Position numbers: made by a program
In this document: positions 21,001-27,000 of the stretch, one piece after another
Numbering within the stretch: position 1 is the stretch's first letter
Layout of the letters: each line of letters opens with the position of its first letter
Assembly: GCA_963798915.1 (NCBI GenBank)
Contig: CAWCVB010000005.1
Location: 25,291-89,290, forward strand
DNA from: an uncultured Gemmatimonadales bacterium
GTDB taxonomy: Bacteria; Gemmatimonadota; Gemmatimonadetes; Gemmatimonadales; GWC2-71-9
Length of the DNA stretch: 64,000 bases
Direction: 5' to 3'

Positions 21001-24000
21001 GACGCCCTGGCCTACGCCCATGGTCGCGGCGTGGTGCACCGCGATATCAAGCCCGACAACATCATGCTGGCCGGGCGCCATGCACTGGTCACCGACTTCG
21101 GCGTCGCCAAGGCGGTGAGTGCATCGGTCAACCGGAGCATGGGGCTCACCACCGGCGGCGTGACCATCGGCACGCCCACCTACATGGCGCCGGAGCAGGC
21201 GGCGGCCGATCCCAACCTGGATCATCGCGCCGATATCTATGCGCTGGGTGTGGTGGCGTACGAAATGCTCAGCGGGCGGCCGCCCTTCATGGCGCCCACG
21301 GCGCAGGGCATGCTCGCAGCCCATGTGACCCAGACCCCCGATCCGGTGAGCGCGCACCGCCAGACCATTCCGCCGGACGTGTCGCAGATCGTGATGCGCT
21401 GCCTGGAAAAACATCCGGCCGATCGCTGGCAGAGCGCGGCGGAGCTGGGCGAGAAGCTGGAGATCGCAACCACGCCTTCGGGTGGCATACCCTCCGTCCC
21501 CACCGAACCGGTGCAGGCAGTGCGGGCCCAGGCGGAGCGCTCGGTGCGACGGGCGCATCCCATGCGGGTGCTGGCGCTGTTTGCCTTGGCCACCGCGGCC
21601 GTCACCGCCGGCGCCTTCGGGCTCACCCGGCTCTTTGGATTGGCCGACTGGGTCTGGATCGGCGCGCTTGGCTGCATGCTGCTGGGCCTGCCGGTGCTGC
21701 TCTATACCGGCCGCCTGGAGCGCCAGCGCGCCATCCTCAAGGCCACCGGCGCGTTTCGCTACGAGCCGGAGCCGGCGCACCAGCAGTTCTTCACCTGGCG
21801 CCGGGCCCTGTGGGGCGGCGCATTCGCACTGGGCGCCCTGCTCCTTGCTACGGTGGCGTTCGGCGTCTCCCGGCATTTCGGCGTCGGCCCAGGCGCGACG
21901 CTGCTGAGCGCGGGCACGCTTGGCAGCCAGGACCGGCTCGTGCTCGCCGACTTTTCCAACCACACGTCCGACTCGACGCTGTCCGCATCGCTGGCGGAAG
22001 CGCTGCGGGTGGACCTGGGGCAGTCGAACGTCGTGCGATTGGTGAATCAGCAGGAGATCAATGCGACGCTGCAGCGGATGGGACAGGAGCCGGGCGGCCC
22101 GCTATCCGAAACAGTAGCGCGTGACGTGGCTCGGCGCGCCAATGCCAAGGCCATTGTCTCGGGTGATGTCTCGCCGCTGGGCACGGGGTACGTGCTCACG
22201 GCCCGGCTGGTGTCGGTCGATGGAGCGACCCTGGCGCCGGTGCGTGAAACGGCGGAGAGCGACGCCGAGCTGATTCCGGCGCTCAACCGGCTCTCGAAAT
22301 CGCTGCGGGAAAAGATCGGCGAATCGCTGCGAACCATTCGCCGCAGTGATGCGCTGGAGCAGGTGACGACGGCATCGCTGCCGGCGCTCGAGCTGTATTC
22401 CCGGGCGGAGCGCGCCTTCGAGAGCAACGACTACACGACCGCGCGCGACCTGCTGACACGCGCGGTACAGACCGACAGCAGCTTTGCGATGGCATGGCGG
22501 AAGCTGGCCGTGGTGATCAACAACATGGCCGGCAGCTCGTCGCAGCAGCGCGCCGCGGCGACGGCGGCATTCAATCACCGCGACCGGCTGCCGCCGCTGG
22601 AGCGCGCGCTGTCGGAGGCGTATTTCTACACCAACGTCCAGTTCAAGCCGGAACAGGCGACGCGTGCCTATCAGCGGGCACTGGACGTGGACTCGCTGAA
22701 CCCCGTGGCCATCAACAACCTGGGATTGCTGTACAACAGGCTGGGCGACTTCGCCAGTGCGGAGACGATCCTGCGGCGCGGGATGCGGCACGAGCCCGCC
22801 CTCACCATGTTCGACAACATGAATCAGGCGCTGCTCTCACAGGCCAAGTATGCCGCGGCCGACAGCGTGCTGGAGCAGCTTCGGGCCCGGGCGCCCGATG
22901 CACCGCTTACGGTCATTAACCTTGCCTACGCAGCATCGGTCAAGCGTGACTATGAGACCGTTGATTCCGTCCTCCGGCCGTTGTCGACCGGAGCCAACCC
23001 AGACCGGATTGCGCAGCTCGTCCGGTCCAATGTCTTCGAGGTGCACGGGGAACTGCGCACCATTGACACGCTCTTCGCCACGATGGCCGGCAAACTGCTG
23101 GCCGAAGGAGACTCGTCGCTCGCCGCCGGCGTGTTGCTGGCCGAGCCGAGCCACGATCTGGTGCAGCGCGGGCAACCTGAGCGTGGGCTCGCAAGCCTAG
23201 ATTCGCTGGAGCACTCGCCGCTCTTCACCTCGCTGCGGAGCGTCGACCGCCCGCTCCTCGGTCTGGCGGAACTTGAGGTGCTGCTCGGCCGTGCCCAGGA
23301 GGTCCGGAAACTGCGCGCGGAATGGGAACGCGCCGTTCCGCCCGAAGAGCGCACGCCCTGGCAGGCGCCGCGATGGGATGCCCTGGTGGCCGGGGCGGAA
23401 GGGCGCTGGAAGGATGCGGCGGCCGCGCAGACTCGCGCGGTGGCCACAGCCCACTGCGCGCCCTGCGGCCGCCACTTCATTGCGCAGGCGTGGGACCGCG
23501 CCGGCGTCAGCGACTCGGCGCTCAAGTACTATGACCTGGCCGCCAACCTGCCGAACACCGACAATGAAGGCGTGGAAGACGCAATCTGGCAGCCCTCCGC
23601 CCTGCGCCGCCTCGGCGAGCTGTACGAAGCCAGAGGTGAACGTCAGAAGGCGCTGGATTACTACGGCAAGTTCGTGGCGTTATGGAAAAATGCCGATGCC
23701 GACTTGCAGCCGCAGGTGACGGAGGTGAAGGCGGCGATGGCGAAGCTGGCGGGGGAGGGGAGGTAGGGGACGGCGAGACGGCGAGGCGGCAAGACGGCGA
23801 GGCGGCGAGTTGGCTAGTTGGCTAGTTGGCTAGTCGGCGAGAGGGCGAGTTGGCAAGACGGCAAGTTGGCGGCGCTGGTCCATCATGGCGCACTCCGGAT
23901 GCTTCGGTGAAGGCCCCAGAGCAGGCGGCCGACTTCGTCGCACTCATTGAGCAGGCTACCGTCGCTCATTCGGGCATATTCGAGATCGCTCGCCAGCCTG

Positions 24001-27000
24001 AGCATGTACTCCACTTCCGCGTGCGACCCCGCAGCGATGTCGAGATAACGACGGAATTCCTTTGACCCTCTCTTGGCCGAGCCCTCGGCCACATTTGCTG
24101 CAATGGAGACCGCGGCGCGCCGAATCTGCGATGTGAGCCCAAATCGCTCGTCAGGAGGCCAGGCCTTCGAGACGGCGTAAATGCGCAGTACCAGCTGATG
24201 CGCCTTCTGCCACACGAGGAGGTCGAGATACGAAGCCATCCCCTAAGATGCCGTCTGCCGCGGTGACCTGGGTATCATTCTCGTGCAGGCCATACCCATG
24301 TCGCGCATTGCCTGGCCGCTCGCCGACTTGCCAACTCGCCGTCTTGCCGTCTCGCCGTCTCGCCGTCTCGCCGTCTTGCCGTCTTGCCGTCTCGCCGTCT
24401 CGCCGTCTCGCCGTCTCGCCGTCTCGCCAACTAGCCGCCTAGCTCCCCTCCCGCCCTCCTCAAAAACCGCTCCGCCAACTGCTCCAGCCGTTCGTCGTGT
24501 CTTTCCCGTGCGTCCGCCAGGATGATTTCCACTTGAGGTATGAGTTCCGGCGTGCCGAAGGCATAGCCGGTCGCAGCTTCGGCGCCGAGCGAGTCGCCGA
24601 CGTTGGCGCCATCGAGCAGCGCACGCGCGGCGGCGAGCGGAAAGGCAGGGTCGTCCCGCTGGGGCAGGGGATAGCGATGTTCGGGCTGGGCTTCCCCCGC
24701 CGCGTCGTCGTTTACGAATGCTCGGGACATGAGAAAAAGATGGGCAGGATAGGCGGGATGGGCCAGATGGGCGGGGGGCGAGACGGCTGGTTGGCTCAAG
24801 CCGTCATCGCGGCATTCTCACGCGGCTAACCGCCATCACCGGAGAACTGCTTCAACATAGAGACGCAGAGGACGCGGAGGCACACAGAGGGCTCCTGGTG
24901 CCGAGCTTCTCCGCTTGCCGGGCTCAGTTCACAAAGGTTTTTGTGGGTGCCCGGCTGAGACCCGGATTCTAAGGCCTCTCACGGAGCACTCCGCGTCCTC
25001 TGTGCCTCCGTTCCTCTGTGTTAAACCATTGGCGCGACCCGATTGCTTCGTCGGGCCCTTCAGGGCGCACCGCCGTGCCCCCCTGCGGACCCTCCTCGCA
25101 ATGACAGCGCCTGGCGAGCTTTCGTCTCGCCAACTCGCCAACTCGCCAACTCGCCAACTCGCCAACTCGCCAACTCGCCAACTCGCCAACTCGCCCTCTC
25201 GCCGTCTTGCCGTCTCGCCGTCTCGCCGTCTCGCCGCTTGCCGCTTGCCGCGGCGGGTGGATCGCGCTTCTATCGTAGGAGGCCCACGCCCTGGGTGCCC
25301 GAGCTTCAGCGACGGAGTGCGAGATGGCGAGCGGCGCGGATGACGTGACTGGCCCTGACCTGGCCAGTGGCATTGACGAAGCAGACCTGCCCGACGGCGC
25401 CATGCTGTCGGGAACGGTCGAAGGCGAGGCGGTACTCCTGGTGCGGCGTGGGCCGAACGTCCATGCCGTCGGCGCCACCTGCACCCACTATGGCGGCCCG
25501 CTCGCCGAGGGGCTGGTGGTCGGCGAAACACTGCATTGTCCCTGGCACCACGCCTGCTTCGACCTCGTCACCGGACGCGCGGTCGGCGCGCCGGCGCTCA
25601 ATCCGGTGAGCTGCTGGAAGGTGGAGTTGGCCGGCGGCCGTATCCGCGTCACCGGCCGCCGCAGTGCGCCGGCGCCGCCCCCGCCGCCGACCGGCGCCCC
25701 CGCGCGCATGGTCATCATCGGTGCTGGCGCGGCCGGCAATGCGGCTGCGGAGGAGCTGCGGAACCAGGGTTTTGACGGCGCCATCACGATGATCGGGATG
25801 GAGAACGAGATTCCCTATGACCGTCCCAATCTTTCCAAGGACTATCTCGCCGGCAACGCGCCGGAAGAATGGATTCCGCTCCGCACCAGCGCGTTCTACG
25901 CCGAGCGCAACATCACCCTTCGGCTCGGCGCCGTCGTCGATCGGATCGAACCCGAGAGCAGGCAGCTCGTGTTCCAGGATGGCGAGACCCTGGACTATGA
26001 CCGGCTCCTGCTCGCGACCGGCGCCGAGCCGGTGCGGATGCCGGTACCGACGGAAGAGGGCGCGCCGGTGCACTACCTGCGTTCGCTCGACGACTGTCGC
26101 GCGATCATCCGGGCGGCCGCCAGCGCGACTCGTGTGGTAGTGATTGGCGCCAGCTTTATCGGCCTGGAAGTCGCGGCCGCGCTGAGGATGCGGAAGCTGG
26201 CGGTCGCGGTGGTTGCCCCCGAAGAGGTGCCCTTCGAGAAGGTGCTGGGCGCTGAGCTGGGCCAGTTCCTCCGTGGCGTTCATGAGGGACAGGGCGTGGA
26301 ATTTCACCTTGGCACCAAGGTCGAACGCATCAACCGCATCGGCGTGCACCTGGATAATGGCGCCGATCTCGCGGCGGACCTGATCGTGATCGGTATCGGT
26401 GTGCGGCCGCGCACCGCATTGGCCGAAGCGGCTGGTGCCAGGATGGACAAGGGCGTGGTGGTGGATGAACGGTTGGAGACCAGTCTTCCGGGCATCTACG
26501 CCGCGGGCGACATCGCGCGGGTTCCCGATGCTCGCGCCGACGGGACCATGCGGGTGGAGCACTGGGTGGTGGCGGAACGCCAAGGCCAGGCCGCCGCGCG
26601 CAACATGCTGGGGCTGGGCGCACCGTTTCGCGACGTGCCCTTCTTCTGGACCACGCACTACGACACCACGATCAGCTACATCGGCCACGCCGATGAGTGG
26701 GACGAGGCCGAACTGGATGGCAGCCTGAAAGCGGGCTCAGCGACGATGCGCTATCGCCGCGAAGGGAAGCTCCTGGCAGTCGCGACACTGGGACGGGACA
26801 TGGATGGACTGCGCGCCGAGCAAGAGCTGGAGTCGTGGCTGAAGGCCTCGTCGGCACATGTCACGCGGCTGAAAGCCGCTGCTCGGCAAATGTCGCCTGC
26901 GGCGACACTCCCTGGGGCGGATTTCACAGCAGGTGTCATCCAGAGGCCGCGAAGCGGCCGAAGGATCTACTGGTCCGGGTCCCGACGCTGGTGAGTAGAT

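What a model noticed while it worked through the whole genome (the two positions that open the first line are those of the whole stretch)
23769..24428. Four-helix-bundle (23S rRNA IVP/Avd-like) genes sit in hairpins made of inverted heptamer arrays
Seven of the genome's eight PF05635 genes (23S rRNA intervening-sequence protein / four-helix-bundle, the family of DGR Avd) are each enclosed by two tandem arrays of 7-9-nt units that are reverse complements of each other, so that the transcript (or single-stranded DNA) would fold into a long stem with the ~120-codon gene as its loop. Polarity is fixed: the array upstream of the start codon (9-79 nt away) is G-rich on the sense strand, the C-rich partner starts at the stop codon (-24 to +20 nt). 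The shown locus is g01327 (C5:49173-49529, minus) between (GACGGCGA)n and (GCCGTCTC)n; the others are C3:116075-116584, C3:181126-181653, C5:74009-74637, C7:23827-24368, C10:14707-15206, C10:106494- [...]
Evidence so far: Arrays on both sides within 200 nt: 69 of 3240 genes; with matching inverted units: 12 genes, 7 of them PF05635 genes (7 of 8 such genes; the 8th, g01373, has one array by TRF and a degenerate partner by eye, call 183). Predicted duplex energy of the two arrays -55 to -210 kcal/mol vs -22 to -55 for the same-sense control; upstream array G-rich in 7 of 7. Among 181 neighbouring array pairs (<=700 nt) 45 are inverted matches and 7 direct; all 7 pairs with gaps of 419-452 nt are the PF05635 genes; content of the 14 mid-size loops: call 178. 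Unbiased scan of all genes <=400 aa for inverted matches between 250 nt upstream and downstream (score >=24): 9 genes only - 5 PF05635 genes, the RAYT-like [...]
(Added by a program. Inside this text positions count along the whole contig: contig position 25,291 is position 1 of the stretch shown here. "Call 12" and the like, gene names such as g00115 and contig names such as C1 are that model's own, and its searches are not shown. The text may have been shortened before it was handed on; [...] marks where a part breaks off. The agent that wrote the report below was given it as the finding of a first reader that could run no searches.)

Follow-up and report, generated by a model that had tools for sequence, protein, structure and literature searches.

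The report
Four-helix-bundle gene cassettes inside repeat hairpins
A small, well-conserved gene of unknown function sits between two mirror-image runs of 7-9-base repeats, and it behaves as a portable gene cassette built like the intervening sequences of ribosomal RNA but lying outside any rRNA gene.

Summary
In the window a 118-codon PF05635 gene (23883-24239, minus strand) lies between (GACGGCGA)n and (GCCGTCTC)n. All 8 PF05635 genes of this Gemmatimonadales genome have complementary arms, as do 69 of 73 relatives in 41 genomes and 62 of 76 in other phyla.

- "G-rich arm always upstream" is a geometric tautology. A G-first inverted repeat is G-first on both strands.
- The arms are not specific to this gene. 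The same hairpins stand empty or hold small palindromic elements, Uma2, GIY-YIG and RAYT-like genes.
- The gene has its own leaderless-type promoter inside the loop, and mismatches show no strand bias. Its own mRNA therefore probably lacks the 5' arm.

At orthologous sites in sister species the hairpin is empty, holds another cargo, or holds a different PF05635 lineage in the opposite orientation. Cassette lineages keep their arm unit type, even the period (7 versus 8-10 nt), across non-orthologous sites.

Best reading: a mobile, protein-selected cassette (dN/dS 0.06-0.30) that spreads among array hairpins of one unit family, probably through arm homology. It is the extra-ribosomal counterpart of ORF-bearing 23S intervening sequences.

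This scan has noted the same layout before on other DNA. I found no paper describing it.

The parts
23769..23871 (+). (GACGGCGA)n array. On the gene's sense (minus) strand this is the C-rich arm that starts 12 nt after the stop codon. It begins 3 nt after the stop of the kinase gene on the plus strand.
   Evidence: TRF period 8, 11.8 copies; sequence; arm alignment score 123
23883..24239 (-). PF05635 (23S rRNA IVS protein / four-helix-bundle) gene, 118 aa
   Evidence: ORF; Pfam E 7.3e-36; PDB 2GSC E 6.4e-21
24240..24314 (-). Promoter-like spacer between the arm and the ATG. It has a -10-like CATCTT at about 24245-24250 and a GATACC motif at about 24271-24276. No Shine-Dalgarno motif was seen by eye.
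   Evidence: Position-specific conservation in 71 leaders; host -10 consensus read from tRNA upstream regions; genome-wide hexamer peak at -12..-7. Coordinates of the two motifs were read by eye.
24315..24428 (+). (GCCGTCTC)n array, which is the G-rich arm (GAGACGGC)n on the gene's sense strand. It ends 2 nt before the stop codon of the convergent neighbour gene 24431-24799(-).
   Evidence: TRF period 8, 14.4 copies, 90% matches
20503..23766 (+). Left neighbour: Ser/Thr kinase with TPR repeats. It served as the anchor for the orthologous-site comparison.
24431..24799 (-). Right neighbour: 122-aa ORF with no Pfam family, conserved in the genus at 79-82% nucleotide identity. It served as the second anchor.
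48719..48837 (+). (CGGGATGGG)n array, one arm of the second cassette in the window
   Evidence: TRF period 9, 13.1 copies
48840..49193 (-). Second PF05635 gene, 117 aa
   Evidence: Pfam E 4.2e-33
49254..49347 (+). (ATCCCGCCC)n array, the complementary arm of the second cassette
   Evidence: TRF period 9, 10.4 copies; arm alignment score 148
50583..51456 (+). Another array hairpin with a different cargo: (AAGACGGG)n 50583-50615, a Uma2-family nuclease gene 50740-51396, and (CCCGACTT)n 51416-51456
11987..12205 (+). Array hairpin with non-coding cargo: (GTCGTCG)n, a 90-nt palindromic element (TGTCATCCCGAGG...GGATGACA) and (GACCGAC)n

Best explanation
The unit is a small mobile gene cassette: a leaderless-type promoter of about 80 nt plus a PF05635 ORF of about 120 codons. 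It sits at the apex of an intergenic hairpin made of two inverted tandem arrays.

Such array hairpins are a general feature of gene 3' ends in this lineage. They are G-rich on the coding strand just after a stop codon. They exist in 'unit families' scattered over the genome, many of them empty.

Cargo includes this cassette, and also protein-less palindromic elements and occasional Uma2, GIY-YIG or Y1-transposase genes. Cargo is copied from one hairpin into another hairpin of the same unit family. The most likely route is homologous recombination or gene conversion, with the arrays serving as homology arms. This step is inferred. An apex-directed insertion by an unknown enzyme remains possible.

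A cassette lineage therefore stays tied to one arm type, while the cargo at any one site turns over.

The protein itself is maintained by selection. By family it is a pentameric nucleic-acid-binding four-helix bundle, and I infer that it acts on the repeat arms or the hairpin.

The design matches that of ORF-bearing 23S rRNA intervening sequences, but here it lies outside rRNA. The stem probably matters as DNA, or in read-through RNA, rather than in the gene's own mRNA.
For: Shown:
- Arms are complementary in 8 of 8 own loci, 69 of 73 in the order and 62 of 76 in other phyla. Direct-repeat controls give 9 of 73 and 21 of 76.
- Site 3: only G000 is filled. G001, G005 and G002 carry an empty (GGTCGAC/GGTCAAC) hairpin of the same unit. 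G008 and G006 carry empty hairpins of other units.
- Site 1: G001, G004 and G008 share (CAGGGCGAG)n arms but hold a PF05635 gene, a GTCATTCCCGCG element and a GTCATTGCGAGG element respectively. G006 has a bare hairpin. G000 and G001 hold different PF05635 lineages in opposite orientations.
- Site 2: sister species hold RAYT+REP, or a Uma2 gene with palindromic elements, between arm remnants.
- Three copies in G000 differ by dS 0.07-0.14 and sit at three unrelated sites.
- All 10 protein pairs of 80% identity or more have like arm units, and 7 of the 10 lie at non-orthologous sites.
- The arm period follows the protein tree: 9 changes against a shuffled mean of 30.4 and minimum of 24, over 116 rows. 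One clade of 28 rows has 8-10-nt units in 27.
- Protein-less cargo families also prefer one arm type.
- dN/dS is 0.06-0.30.
- A promoter lies inside the loop.
- No strand-specific G:U signal is seen.
Against: - No recombination or insertion event was caught between near-identical strains. The sister species are 72-88% identical in the flanks, so exact junctions cannot be read.
- At site 4 the GGTCGAC-armed cassette of G000 replaces a (CACGAAAG)n hairpin seen in relatives. In G001 a palindromic element with GGTCGAC mini-arms sits inside another hairpin. Arm homology alone cannot explain entry into a foreign hairpin, so arms sometimes travel with the cargo.
- Arm type is kept across saturated dS (L002/L076, the L001/L010/L011 group, and the 8-10-nt clade). 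That may need constraint from the protein rather than hitch-hiking.
- Passive spread does not explain why PF05635 in particular is the obligate cargo: 8 of 8 genes, against 1 of 11 Uma2 matches.
- The leaderless start is inferred from motifs, not from mapped 5' ends.
Confidence: 0.5

Rival explanations
1. IVS-like RNA processing. Transcripts reading through from the neighbouring gene contain both arms. The long stem is cut by RNase III, which releases or insulates the cassette RNA and leaves the neighbour's mRNA with a stable 3' stem. The arms are kept because they make the insertion harmless.
For: The build matches the Coxiella IVS: a PF05635 ORF in the loop of a 28-bp stem cut by RNase III, with tandem heptamers before the ORF (PMC4990558, passages read). 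Predicted stems are -54 to -246 kcal/mol. The arms begin within a few nt of the neighbours' stop codons, so read-through RNA would carry both. In other phyla the arm ends a median of 27 nt before the start codon.
Against: In Gemmatimonadales the gene has its own leaderless-type promoter inside the loop. There is no excess of G:U on the sense strand, 182 against 152. Arms are often unequal and imperfect: (GGTCAAC)16 faces 5 units of mostly GTCGACC, which gives A:C mismatches in sense RNA. The same arms enclose non-coding cargo or nothing. No expression data exist.
Confidence: 0.2
2. RAYT/REP-like relationship. The PF05635 pentamer recognises the repeat unit of its own arms (7-nt readers and 8-10-nt readers). 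It either drives homing of the cassette into cognate hairpins or promotes the spread and expansion of those arrays. The many empty hairpins would then be its non-autonomous derivatives.
For: Arm period and unit follow the protein lineage across non-orthologous sites and saturated dS, although both 7-nt and 8/9-nt arrays are abundant in the same genome. The protein is under strong purifying selection. The units of the 8 cassettes are among the commonest unit families of the genome. The family includes DGR Avd (bAvd match at 26.3 bits); Avd's nucleic-acid-binding role is recalled. The solved relative 2GSC has 5 chains and is called a homopentamer in PMC4990558. Heptamer arms have a median of 4.35 copies, close to the five protomers of a pentamer.
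Against: Protein-less cargo families show the same preference for one arm type. Abundant unit families lack a cognate gene in this 85%-complete genome: AAGGCTG 29, ACGGGCAGG 29, ACCCTCG 29. Proteins 89% identical have 8-nt and 9-nt units (L074/L089). No catalytic motif is known. Array density in samples of 5 genomes without the gene (0-18.9 per 100 kb) overlaps that of 5 with it (3.4-35.8).
Confidence: 0.2
3. Ordinary small gene between two terminators. The arrays are merely the 3'-end hairpin halves of the flanking genes, and the PF05635 gene happens to lie between them.
For: Arrays start at the neighbours' stop codons, and the window locus lies between convergent genes. Arrays are enriched in convergent spacers: 118 arrays in 363 convergent spacers against 76 in 361 divergent ones (crude gene calls).
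Against: The two arms match each other at 69 of 73 loci, against the 95th percentile of cross-locus pairs. Contexts include co-directional neighbours. Filled and empty orthologous sites exist, and recent paralogues sit at unrelated sites. Only 13 of 1950 small genes score 40 or more.
Confidence: 0.05

Closest known systems
ORF-bearing intervening sequences (IVS) of 23S rRNA (Coxiella burnetii S23p IVS; Leptospira, Brucella and Xanthomonas as named in PMC4990558)
   Same: The protein family is the same (PF05635). The ORF lies in the loop of a stem made by terminal inverted repeats. Tandem heptamers of variable number precede the ORF in Coxiella (PMC4990558, passages).
   Different: All 8 copies here lie between protein genes. 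The single 23S gene (2971 nt) has no such insert. The arms are tandem arrays of 7-9-nt units, up to about 130 nt long. The gene has its own promoter and is under purifying selection (dN/dS 0.06-0.30), whereas the Coxiella ORF is described as decaying and probably not expressed. RNase III cutting is untested here.
G-rich heptamer simple sequence repeats of Xanthomonas (GGGAATC) and Nostoc/Anabaena (Rehm et al. 2015, PMC4692102)
   Same: Both are intergenic 7-nt tandem arrays that lie on the coding strand within 0-50 bp of the stop codon. Xanthomonas has 70-75 convergent pairs able to form stem-loops (passages read). This matches the G-first rule found here (27 of 27).
   Different: This genome has many unit families with periods of 7, 8 and 9 nt. 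The passages I read do not mention any gene or element carried between paired repeats ('hypothetical protein' occurs 0 times).
REP/REPIN elements with their RAYT transposase
   Same: A single-copy-type gene is flanked by inverted copies of a repeat that is also dispersed through the genome. A RAYT-like Y1 gene in this genome scores 74 in the same scan. RAYT+REP occupies the orthologous site 2 in sister species.
   Different: PF05635 has no HUH/Y1 domain. The arms are tandem arrays rather than single palindromes. There are many unit families rather than one.
Avd, the accessory protein of diversity-generating retroelements
   Same: It shares the four-helix-bundle superfamily. The bAvd profile matches at 26.3 bits.
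   Different: The match is below the bAvd cut-off of 40 bits. The neighbours are a kinase and an unknown ORF, and no reverse transcriptase or template/variable repeat pair lies next to the gene.
Elements that target hairpins: IS1397/ISKpn1 in REP loops, class C group II introns after terminators, integron attC cassettes (all recalled, not checked here)
   Same: Small mobile units are found at or in hairpin structures between genes. Integron cassettes are single small genes with a hairpin-forming site.
   Different: No transposase, intron RNA or integrase was seen in the cassette (for the protein; sequence read). The arms lie on both sides and are tandem arrays.

Membership tests
PF05635 (23S_rRNA_IVP, four-helix-bundle protein) | Match to the Pfam profile above its gathering score | tested here: met
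   123.1 bits against 33.8, E 7.3e-36. The second window gene scores 114.2 bits. There are 8 matches in the genome.
PF05635 (23S_rRNA_IVP, four-helix-bundle protein) | Four-helix bundle that assembles as a pentamer | not tested
   Sequence match only, to PDB 2GSC (5 chains, E 6.4e-21) and 2RLD. 2GSC is called a homopentamer in PMC4990558. No structure was predicted here.
ORF-bearing 23S rRNA intervening sequence | Inserted in a helix of the 23S rRNA gene | tested here: not met
   The 23S gene lies at G000:C6:138630-141600, 2971 nt for a 2925-position model. None of the 8 genes lies there. The window locus lies between a kinase gene and a 122-aa ORF.
ORF-bearing 23S rRNA intervening sequence | PF05635 ORF enclosed by terminal inverted repeats that can form a long stem | tested here: met
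   Arm alignment scores are 42-148 against a threshold of 28. Duplex energies are -54 to -246 kcal/mol.
ORF-bearing 23S rRNA intervening sequence | Excision of the stem-loop by RNase III | not testable with these tools
   No sequencing run was listed. Indirect sequence tests (G:U bias) give no support.
DGR accessory protein Avd | Match to the bAvd profile above its cut-off, and adjacency to a reverse transcriptase with template and variable repeats | tested here: not met
   PF22296 scores 26.3 bits against a cut-off of 40. Of the neighbours, one is a kinase and the other has no family.
RAYT/REP system | Flanked gene encodes an HUH Y1 transposase | tested here: not met
   No PF01797 match in the cassette protein. 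Y1_Tnp genes lie elsewhere in the genome.
RAYT/REP system | Gene flanked by inverted copies of a repeat that is dispersed genome-wide | tested here: met
   The arm units of the 8 genes belong to unit families with 7-42 arrays each among 613 arrays.
G-rich intergenic heptamer SSR pairs (Rehm et al. 2015) | Tandem 7-nt-class arrays, G-rich on the coding strand next to the stop codon, often as convergent pairs | tested here: met
   (27 of 27 G-first); the description in PMC4692102. Here the periods are 7, 8 and 9.

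The most novel reading that the evidence does not exclude
PF05635 proteins are repeat-reading ring proteins. Each clade would be tuned to a unit period (7 nt, or 8-10 nt) and would drive the homing of its own cassette into cognate array hairpins, or even their creation. The intergenic heptamer-repeat hairpins seen in many phyla (Xanthomonas SSR pairs, cyanobacterial STRR, these Gemmatimonadales arrays) would then be the footprint or non-autonomous offspring of a transposase-free class of mobile element. The ORF-bearing intervening sequences of 23S rRNA would be the same element landed in an rRNA helix.
Probability: 0.2. Interest if true: 0.9.

Novelty: new variant of a known kind. 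Interest (0 to 1): 0.68.

Why it matters
PF05635 is a very common 'hypothetical' family whose only studied members are the DGR accessory protein Avd and the apparently dispensable ORF of rRNA intervening sequences.

If most members are portable cassettes nested in repeat hairpins, several things follow:
- The origin of ORF-bearing IVS is explained.
- Short intergenic tandem repeats, a long-unexplained feature of several phyla, gain a concrete genetic role as landing pads or homology arms.
- A simple testable hypothesis arises for what the protein binds.

The association between protein clade and repeat period gives a direct experimental handle: 7-nt against 8-nt arrays with proteins of the two clades.

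For genome annotation, these cassettes, and the palindromic elements, Uma2, GIY-YIG and RAYT genes found in the same hairpins, mark hot spots of intergenic turnover. They also tend to break short-read assemblies.

Tried and rejected
- Sequencing runs holding window:22900-25300: none was listed, so no RNA holder was listed.
- Rfam at gathering score over the whole window: 0 matches.
- Exact 34-base pattern from the kinase 3' end in metagenome contigs, meant to find near-identical strains with another cargo state: 0 hits.
- Earlier findings by sequence for the palindromic element: one unrelated note.
- A strict composite promoter regex gave 1 hit in the genome against 0-8 in shuffles. It was too strict even for the 8 cassettes and was dropped in favour of position counts (then).
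- The first 20-row protein alignment (A1) was too diverse for the search for related loci. An 8-row alignment worked.
- The (GGTCRNN)4 pattern in 41 relatives showed these arrays to be almost confined to the genus: 302 matches in G000, and 0-2 in G003, G007 and G009, which still have PF05635 genes. It cannot test a gene-array correlation.
- Array density in 41.9-80 kb samples of 5 genomes without the gene (2.5, 6.5, 6.9, 0 and 18.9 per 100 kb) and 5 with it (4.6, 35.8, 3.4, 4.8 and 32.5) overlapped. Three 80-kb pieces of G000 alone range from 2.5 to 33.8. The result is inconclusive.
- The idea that cassettes sit only between convergent genes was rejected. With my crude gene calls the 6 cassette hairpins lie in -- (3), +- (2) and ++ (1) contexts.
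- Sigma-54 and ECF readings of the GGTAC motif were considered by eye and dropped. Spacing and sequence do not fit in most leaders.
- No structure or complex prediction was run. The pentamer rests on the solved relative.

Full report
WHAT IS THERE

The window is G000:C5:25291-89290 of a 3.31-Mb, 66% G+C genome in 17 contigs. Earlier notes of this scan place it in the Gemmatimonadales. The best public matches of the cassette protein bear that name.

At the given place, TRF reports (GACGGCGA)n at 23769-23871 and (GCCGTCTC)n at 24315-24428. Between them lies ORF 23883..24239 on the minus strand, 118 aa. It matches PF05635 at E 7.3e-36 and the solved Xanthomonas protein XCC0516 (2GSC, five chains) at E 6.4e-21.

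The left array starts 3 nt after the stop of a Ser/Thr-kinase/TPR gene (20503-23766, +). The right array ends 2 nt before the stop of a convergent 122-aa ORF (24431-24799, -).

A second PF05635 gene in the window (48840-49193, -) lies between (CGGGATGGG)n and (ATCCCGCCC)n.

IS IT MORE THAN CHANCE?

The genome has 8 PF05635 matches. All 8 have a G-rich array upstream and its complement at the stop. The units are GAGACGGC, GGGATGGGC, GGTCAAC, GGGTCGT, GCGTCGA, GGTCGAC (at two loci) and GGTCGTC.

I aligned the 300 nt upstream with the reverse complement of the 300 nt downstream:
- The 8 loci score 42-148. Across 300 cross-locus permutations the median is 20 and the 95th percentile 28.
- I collected 77 loci from 41 genomes of the order (one locus, L035, comes from a genome flagged unpublished). 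Of these, 73 have full flanks. 69 of the 73 exceed the threshold, against 9 of 73 for the direct-repeat control.
- In an independent set of 80 public loci from 13 named phyla, 62 of 76 with full flanks exceed that set's own threshold of 24, against 21 of 76 for the direct control. By phylum: Acidobacteriota 21 of 22, Planctomycetota 10 of 15, Gemmatimonadota 9 of 9, Verrucomicrobiota 5 of 6, Chloroflexota 3 of 6, Pseudomonadota 1 of 4.
- Arm duplex energies for the 8 own loci are -54 to -246 kcal/mol, against -18 to -60 for the same-sense control.
- In a scan of 1950 predicted genes of 400 aa or fewer, 13 score 40 or more.

1. Polarity. The genome has 613 arrays of period 6-10 (0.8% of the DNA). 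Among 270 neighbouring pairs, 31 are inverted matches. All 27 with gaps of 800 nt or less have the G-rich arm first, whether the gap holds a gene or 15 nt. A G-first inverted repeat reads G-first on both strands. 'G-rich upstream of the start in 7 of 7' therefore says nothing about the gene. The same rule, a G-rich repeat on the coding strand within 0-50 bp of the stop and often in convergent pairs, is described for Xanthomonas GGGAATC repeats (PMC4692102, passages read). What is tied to gene orientation is the spacing. The upstream arm ends a median of 78 nt before the start (IQR 67-94). The downstream arm starts a median of 2 nt after the stop.

2. The arms are not private to this gene.
- Eighteen inverted pairs have loops of 15-128 nt. 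Many of these loops hold one of three families of palindromic elements: GTCATTCCCGCG..., TGTCATCCCGAGG... and GTCATTGCGAGG....
- Among the 13 genes scoring 40 or more are 5 PF05635 genes, a Y1 (RAYT-like) transposase, a GIY-YIG nuclease, a Uma2 nuclease (window 50740-51396) and an IS481-type transposase. Four look ordinary: MscS, a GDSL lipase next to the RAYT gene, a GluQRS-like gene, and a 98-aa ORF with a higher direct score.
- The other 3 PF05635 genes were missing from my crude gene set.

3. The gene's own mRNA probably lacks the 5' arm.
- In 71 dereplicated upstream regions, A at -11 occurs in 36, T at -7 in 41, T at -6 in 36 and C at -1 in 57. A GGTAC-like motif lies about 21 nt further up, with G at -38 in 45.
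- Upstream regions of the genome's tRNA genes show TTGAC-N17-TAnnTT promoters, read by eye.
- Genome-wide, the hexamer [TC]A..TT peaks sharply at -12..-7 of predicted starts: 56 genes there, 30 at the next offset and 1-19 at the other offsets. SD-like 4-mers peak at -12 to -9 in the other genes.
- The cassette genes therefore look like members of a leaderless class whose transcript starts at the ATG.
- Consistent with this, mismatches between the arms show no sense-strand bias: 182 G:U in sense against 152 in antisense, p=0.11, with 24 loci against 26 and 21 ties. Sense and antisense duplex energies are alike.
- In other phyla the arm ends a median of 27 nt before the start, so this argument is made for Gemmatimonadales only.

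THE CASSETTE IS MOBILE AND THE HAIRPIN IS A NEST

I compared four of the eight sites with the nine other genomes of the genus. Flanks are 72-88% identical.

Site 1 (the finding):
- G000 has (GACGGCGA)n, the gene on the minus strand, and (GCCGTCTC)n.
- G001 has (CAGGGCGAG)n, a different PF05635 lineage on the plus strand, and (CCTGCTCGC)n.
- G004 and G008 have the same CAGGGCGAG arms around a GTCATTCCCGCG element and a GTCATTGCGAGG element respectively.
- G005 has other arrays around a GTCACCCTGAGG element.
- G006 has a bare (GGACGGAC)n hairpin.
- G009 has a palindromic element and another downstream gene.

Site 2 (second window cassette):
- G008 has an unrelated small hairpin.
- G005 and G004 have a Y1 (RAYT-like) gene with REP-like repeats between arm remnants. 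G002 has a remnant of that.
- G009 has a Uma2-like gene and palindromic elements between (GGCGGACA)n arms.

Site 3 (G000:C10:106693):
- Only G000 is filled.
- G001, G005 and G002 have an empty hairpin of GGTCGAC/GGTCAAC units with no loop.
- G008 and G006 have empty hairpins of other units.

Site 4 (G000:C7:23984):
- Only G000 is filled.
- G004, G006 and G008 have (CACGAAAG)-type hairpins, and G002 a (GGTCGTC)n hairpin.
- G001 has a palindromic element with GGTCGAC mini-arms.
- G003 and G007 have no arrays.

The copies at sites 3 and 4 and a third copy (C10:14836) differ by dS 0.07-0.14 and share no flanks. This points to a recent burst within G000.

ARMS ARE INHERITED WITH THE CARGO LINEAGE

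- All 10 protein pairs of 80% identity or more have the same or a near-identical arm unit. Seven of the ten lie at non-orthologous sites.
- On a protein tree of 65 Gemmatimonadales loci the unit period changes 9 times, against a shuffled mean of 21.4 and a minimum of 17 in 300 shuffles.
- On a joint tree of 116 rows, 7-nt against 8-nt-or-longer units also change 9 times, against a shuffled mean of 30.4 and a minimum of 24.
- One Gemmatimonadota clade of 28 rows (SH-aLRT 94) has 8-10-nt units in 27 rows. The remaining rows have mostly 7-nt units.
- Both clades and both periods coexist in G000. The signal is therefore not a genome effect.
- Rows are kin, so this shows heritability of arm type along the cassette lineage. 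It does not prove that the protein sets the period. The trees were 'quick' trees on about 123 columns, and many forks are weak.
- Protein-less cargo shows the same habit. Family A has 21 copies, 18 of them next to an array, and at least 11 of the 18 lie next to GGATGGGC-type 9-mers. Those 9-mers make up about 53 of the 613 arrays. Family B has 35 copies, 23 next to an array, and 14 of the 23 lie next to GGTCGTC arrays. Those make up 42 of 613.

THE PROTEIN MATTERS

dN/dS is 0.06-0.30 in the 12 pairs where dS was defined. One of the 13 pairs was saturated. The Coxiella ORF, by contrast, is described as decaying (PMC4990558).

HOW IT MOST LIKELY WORKS

Shown:
- complementary arms;
- cargo turnover at fixed sites;
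- empty hairpins of the same unit at a filled site;
- recent paralogues at unrelated sites;
- co-inheritance of arm type with the cargo lineage;
- purifying selection on the protein.

Inferred:
- Hairpins of one unit family act as mutually homologous landing pads. Cargo is copied between them by recombination in the arms, which needs no cassette-encoded enzyme. This would confine a lineage to its arm family.
- Because the arms are symmetric, either orientation can result, as at site 1.

Not explained by this:
- Entry into a foreign hairpin (site 4, and G001).
- Retention of related units over saturated dS.
- Why PF05635 is the obligate cargo.

These open points keep alive the reading that the pentameric protein recognises the repeats.

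COMPARISON WITH WHAT IS KNOWN

The closest known thing is the ORF-bearing 23S IVS. The same family sits in the loop of a terminal-repeat stem, even with variable heptamers before the ORF in Coxiella. Membership fails on location: the 23S gene has no such insert. Processing could not be tested.

The repeat hairpins themselves match the SSR pairs described by Rehm et al..

Literature searches found no paper on a PF05635 gene between inverted tandem arrays:
- PF05635, '23S rRNA-intervening sequence protein', 'four helix bundle protein', S23p: 81 papers, 30 listed, none on this topic by title or abstract start.
- Five of six terms on four-helix bundle, tandem and inverted repeats, IVS, mobile element and heptamer: 0 papers.
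- IVS, inverted repeat and RNase III: 36 papers, 20 listed.

Subscription journals are not covered by these searches.

This scan has reported the same layout in other genomes. I re-tested its generality myself.

VERDICT

This is a real, non-chance architecture. It is a new variant of a known kind: an IVS-like cassette outside rRNA, nested in SSR hairpins. New here are the empty and filled sites, the promoter inside the loop, and the tie between protein clade and repeat period.

Noticed in passing
window 50583-51456: A Uma2-family (PF05685) nuclease gene (50740-51396, +) is enclosed by inverted (AAGACGGG)n and (CCCGACTT)n arrays. It is 1 of 11 Uma2 matches in the genome. A Uma2-like gene also sits in an array hairpin at the orthologous site 2 of G009.
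   Followed up: partly
window 7882-8303: Three exact tandem copies of a 77-nt unit (7960-8192) hold the TGTCATCCCGAG...GATCCTTCGCTTCGCTC palindromic element. They are flanked by (GTCGAGG)n and (CCGACGA)n arrays. The same element family has 35 copies in the genome, mostly beside GGTCGTC arrays.
   Followed up: partly
G000:C1:114068-115498 (outside the window): A 100-aa GIY-YIG nuclease gene (Pfam E 1.3e-13) and tandem copies of the GTCATCC-type palindromic element lie together between inverted (GGTCGTC)n arms. This suggests that the palindromic elements are linked to small GIY-YIG genes.
   Followed up: partly
whole genome (G000): The host promoter, read from tRNA upstream regions, looks like TTGAC-N17-TAnnTT. 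A class of about 50-80 genes has the -10-like hexamer at -12..-7 of the start codon and is apparently leaderless. Most other genes have GGAG-type SD motifs at -12 to -9.
   Followed up: partly
upstream regions of PF05635 genes, e.g. window 24271-24276: A GGTAC(C)-like, often palindromic motif lies about 21 nt upstream of the -10-like hexamer. That is 3 nt further than the host -35 spacing. It could be an operator rather than a -35 box.
   Followed up: no
L003 (G000:C10:106494-106609): The upstream arm is 16.6 perfect copies of GGTCAAC, while the partner arm has 5.6 copies of mostly GTCGACC. Arms expand independently and recently, and are not kept as perfect stems.
   Followed up: no
L093 (G005:C44) and L092 (G004:C224): RAYT-like Y1 transposase genes with REP-like palindromes (CGGCTAAAAGCCGC... 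and CGCGACTGACAGTCGCG... types) occupy the same intergenic site that holds the second PF05635 cassette in G000.
   Followed up: partly
(relatives): Many PF05635 matches in short-read assemblies lie within a few hundred bases of a contig end (for example G002:C147:142-453 and G006:C439:2-232). This is as expected if the flanking arrays break assemblies, so copy numbers in such bins are lower bounds.
   Followed up: no
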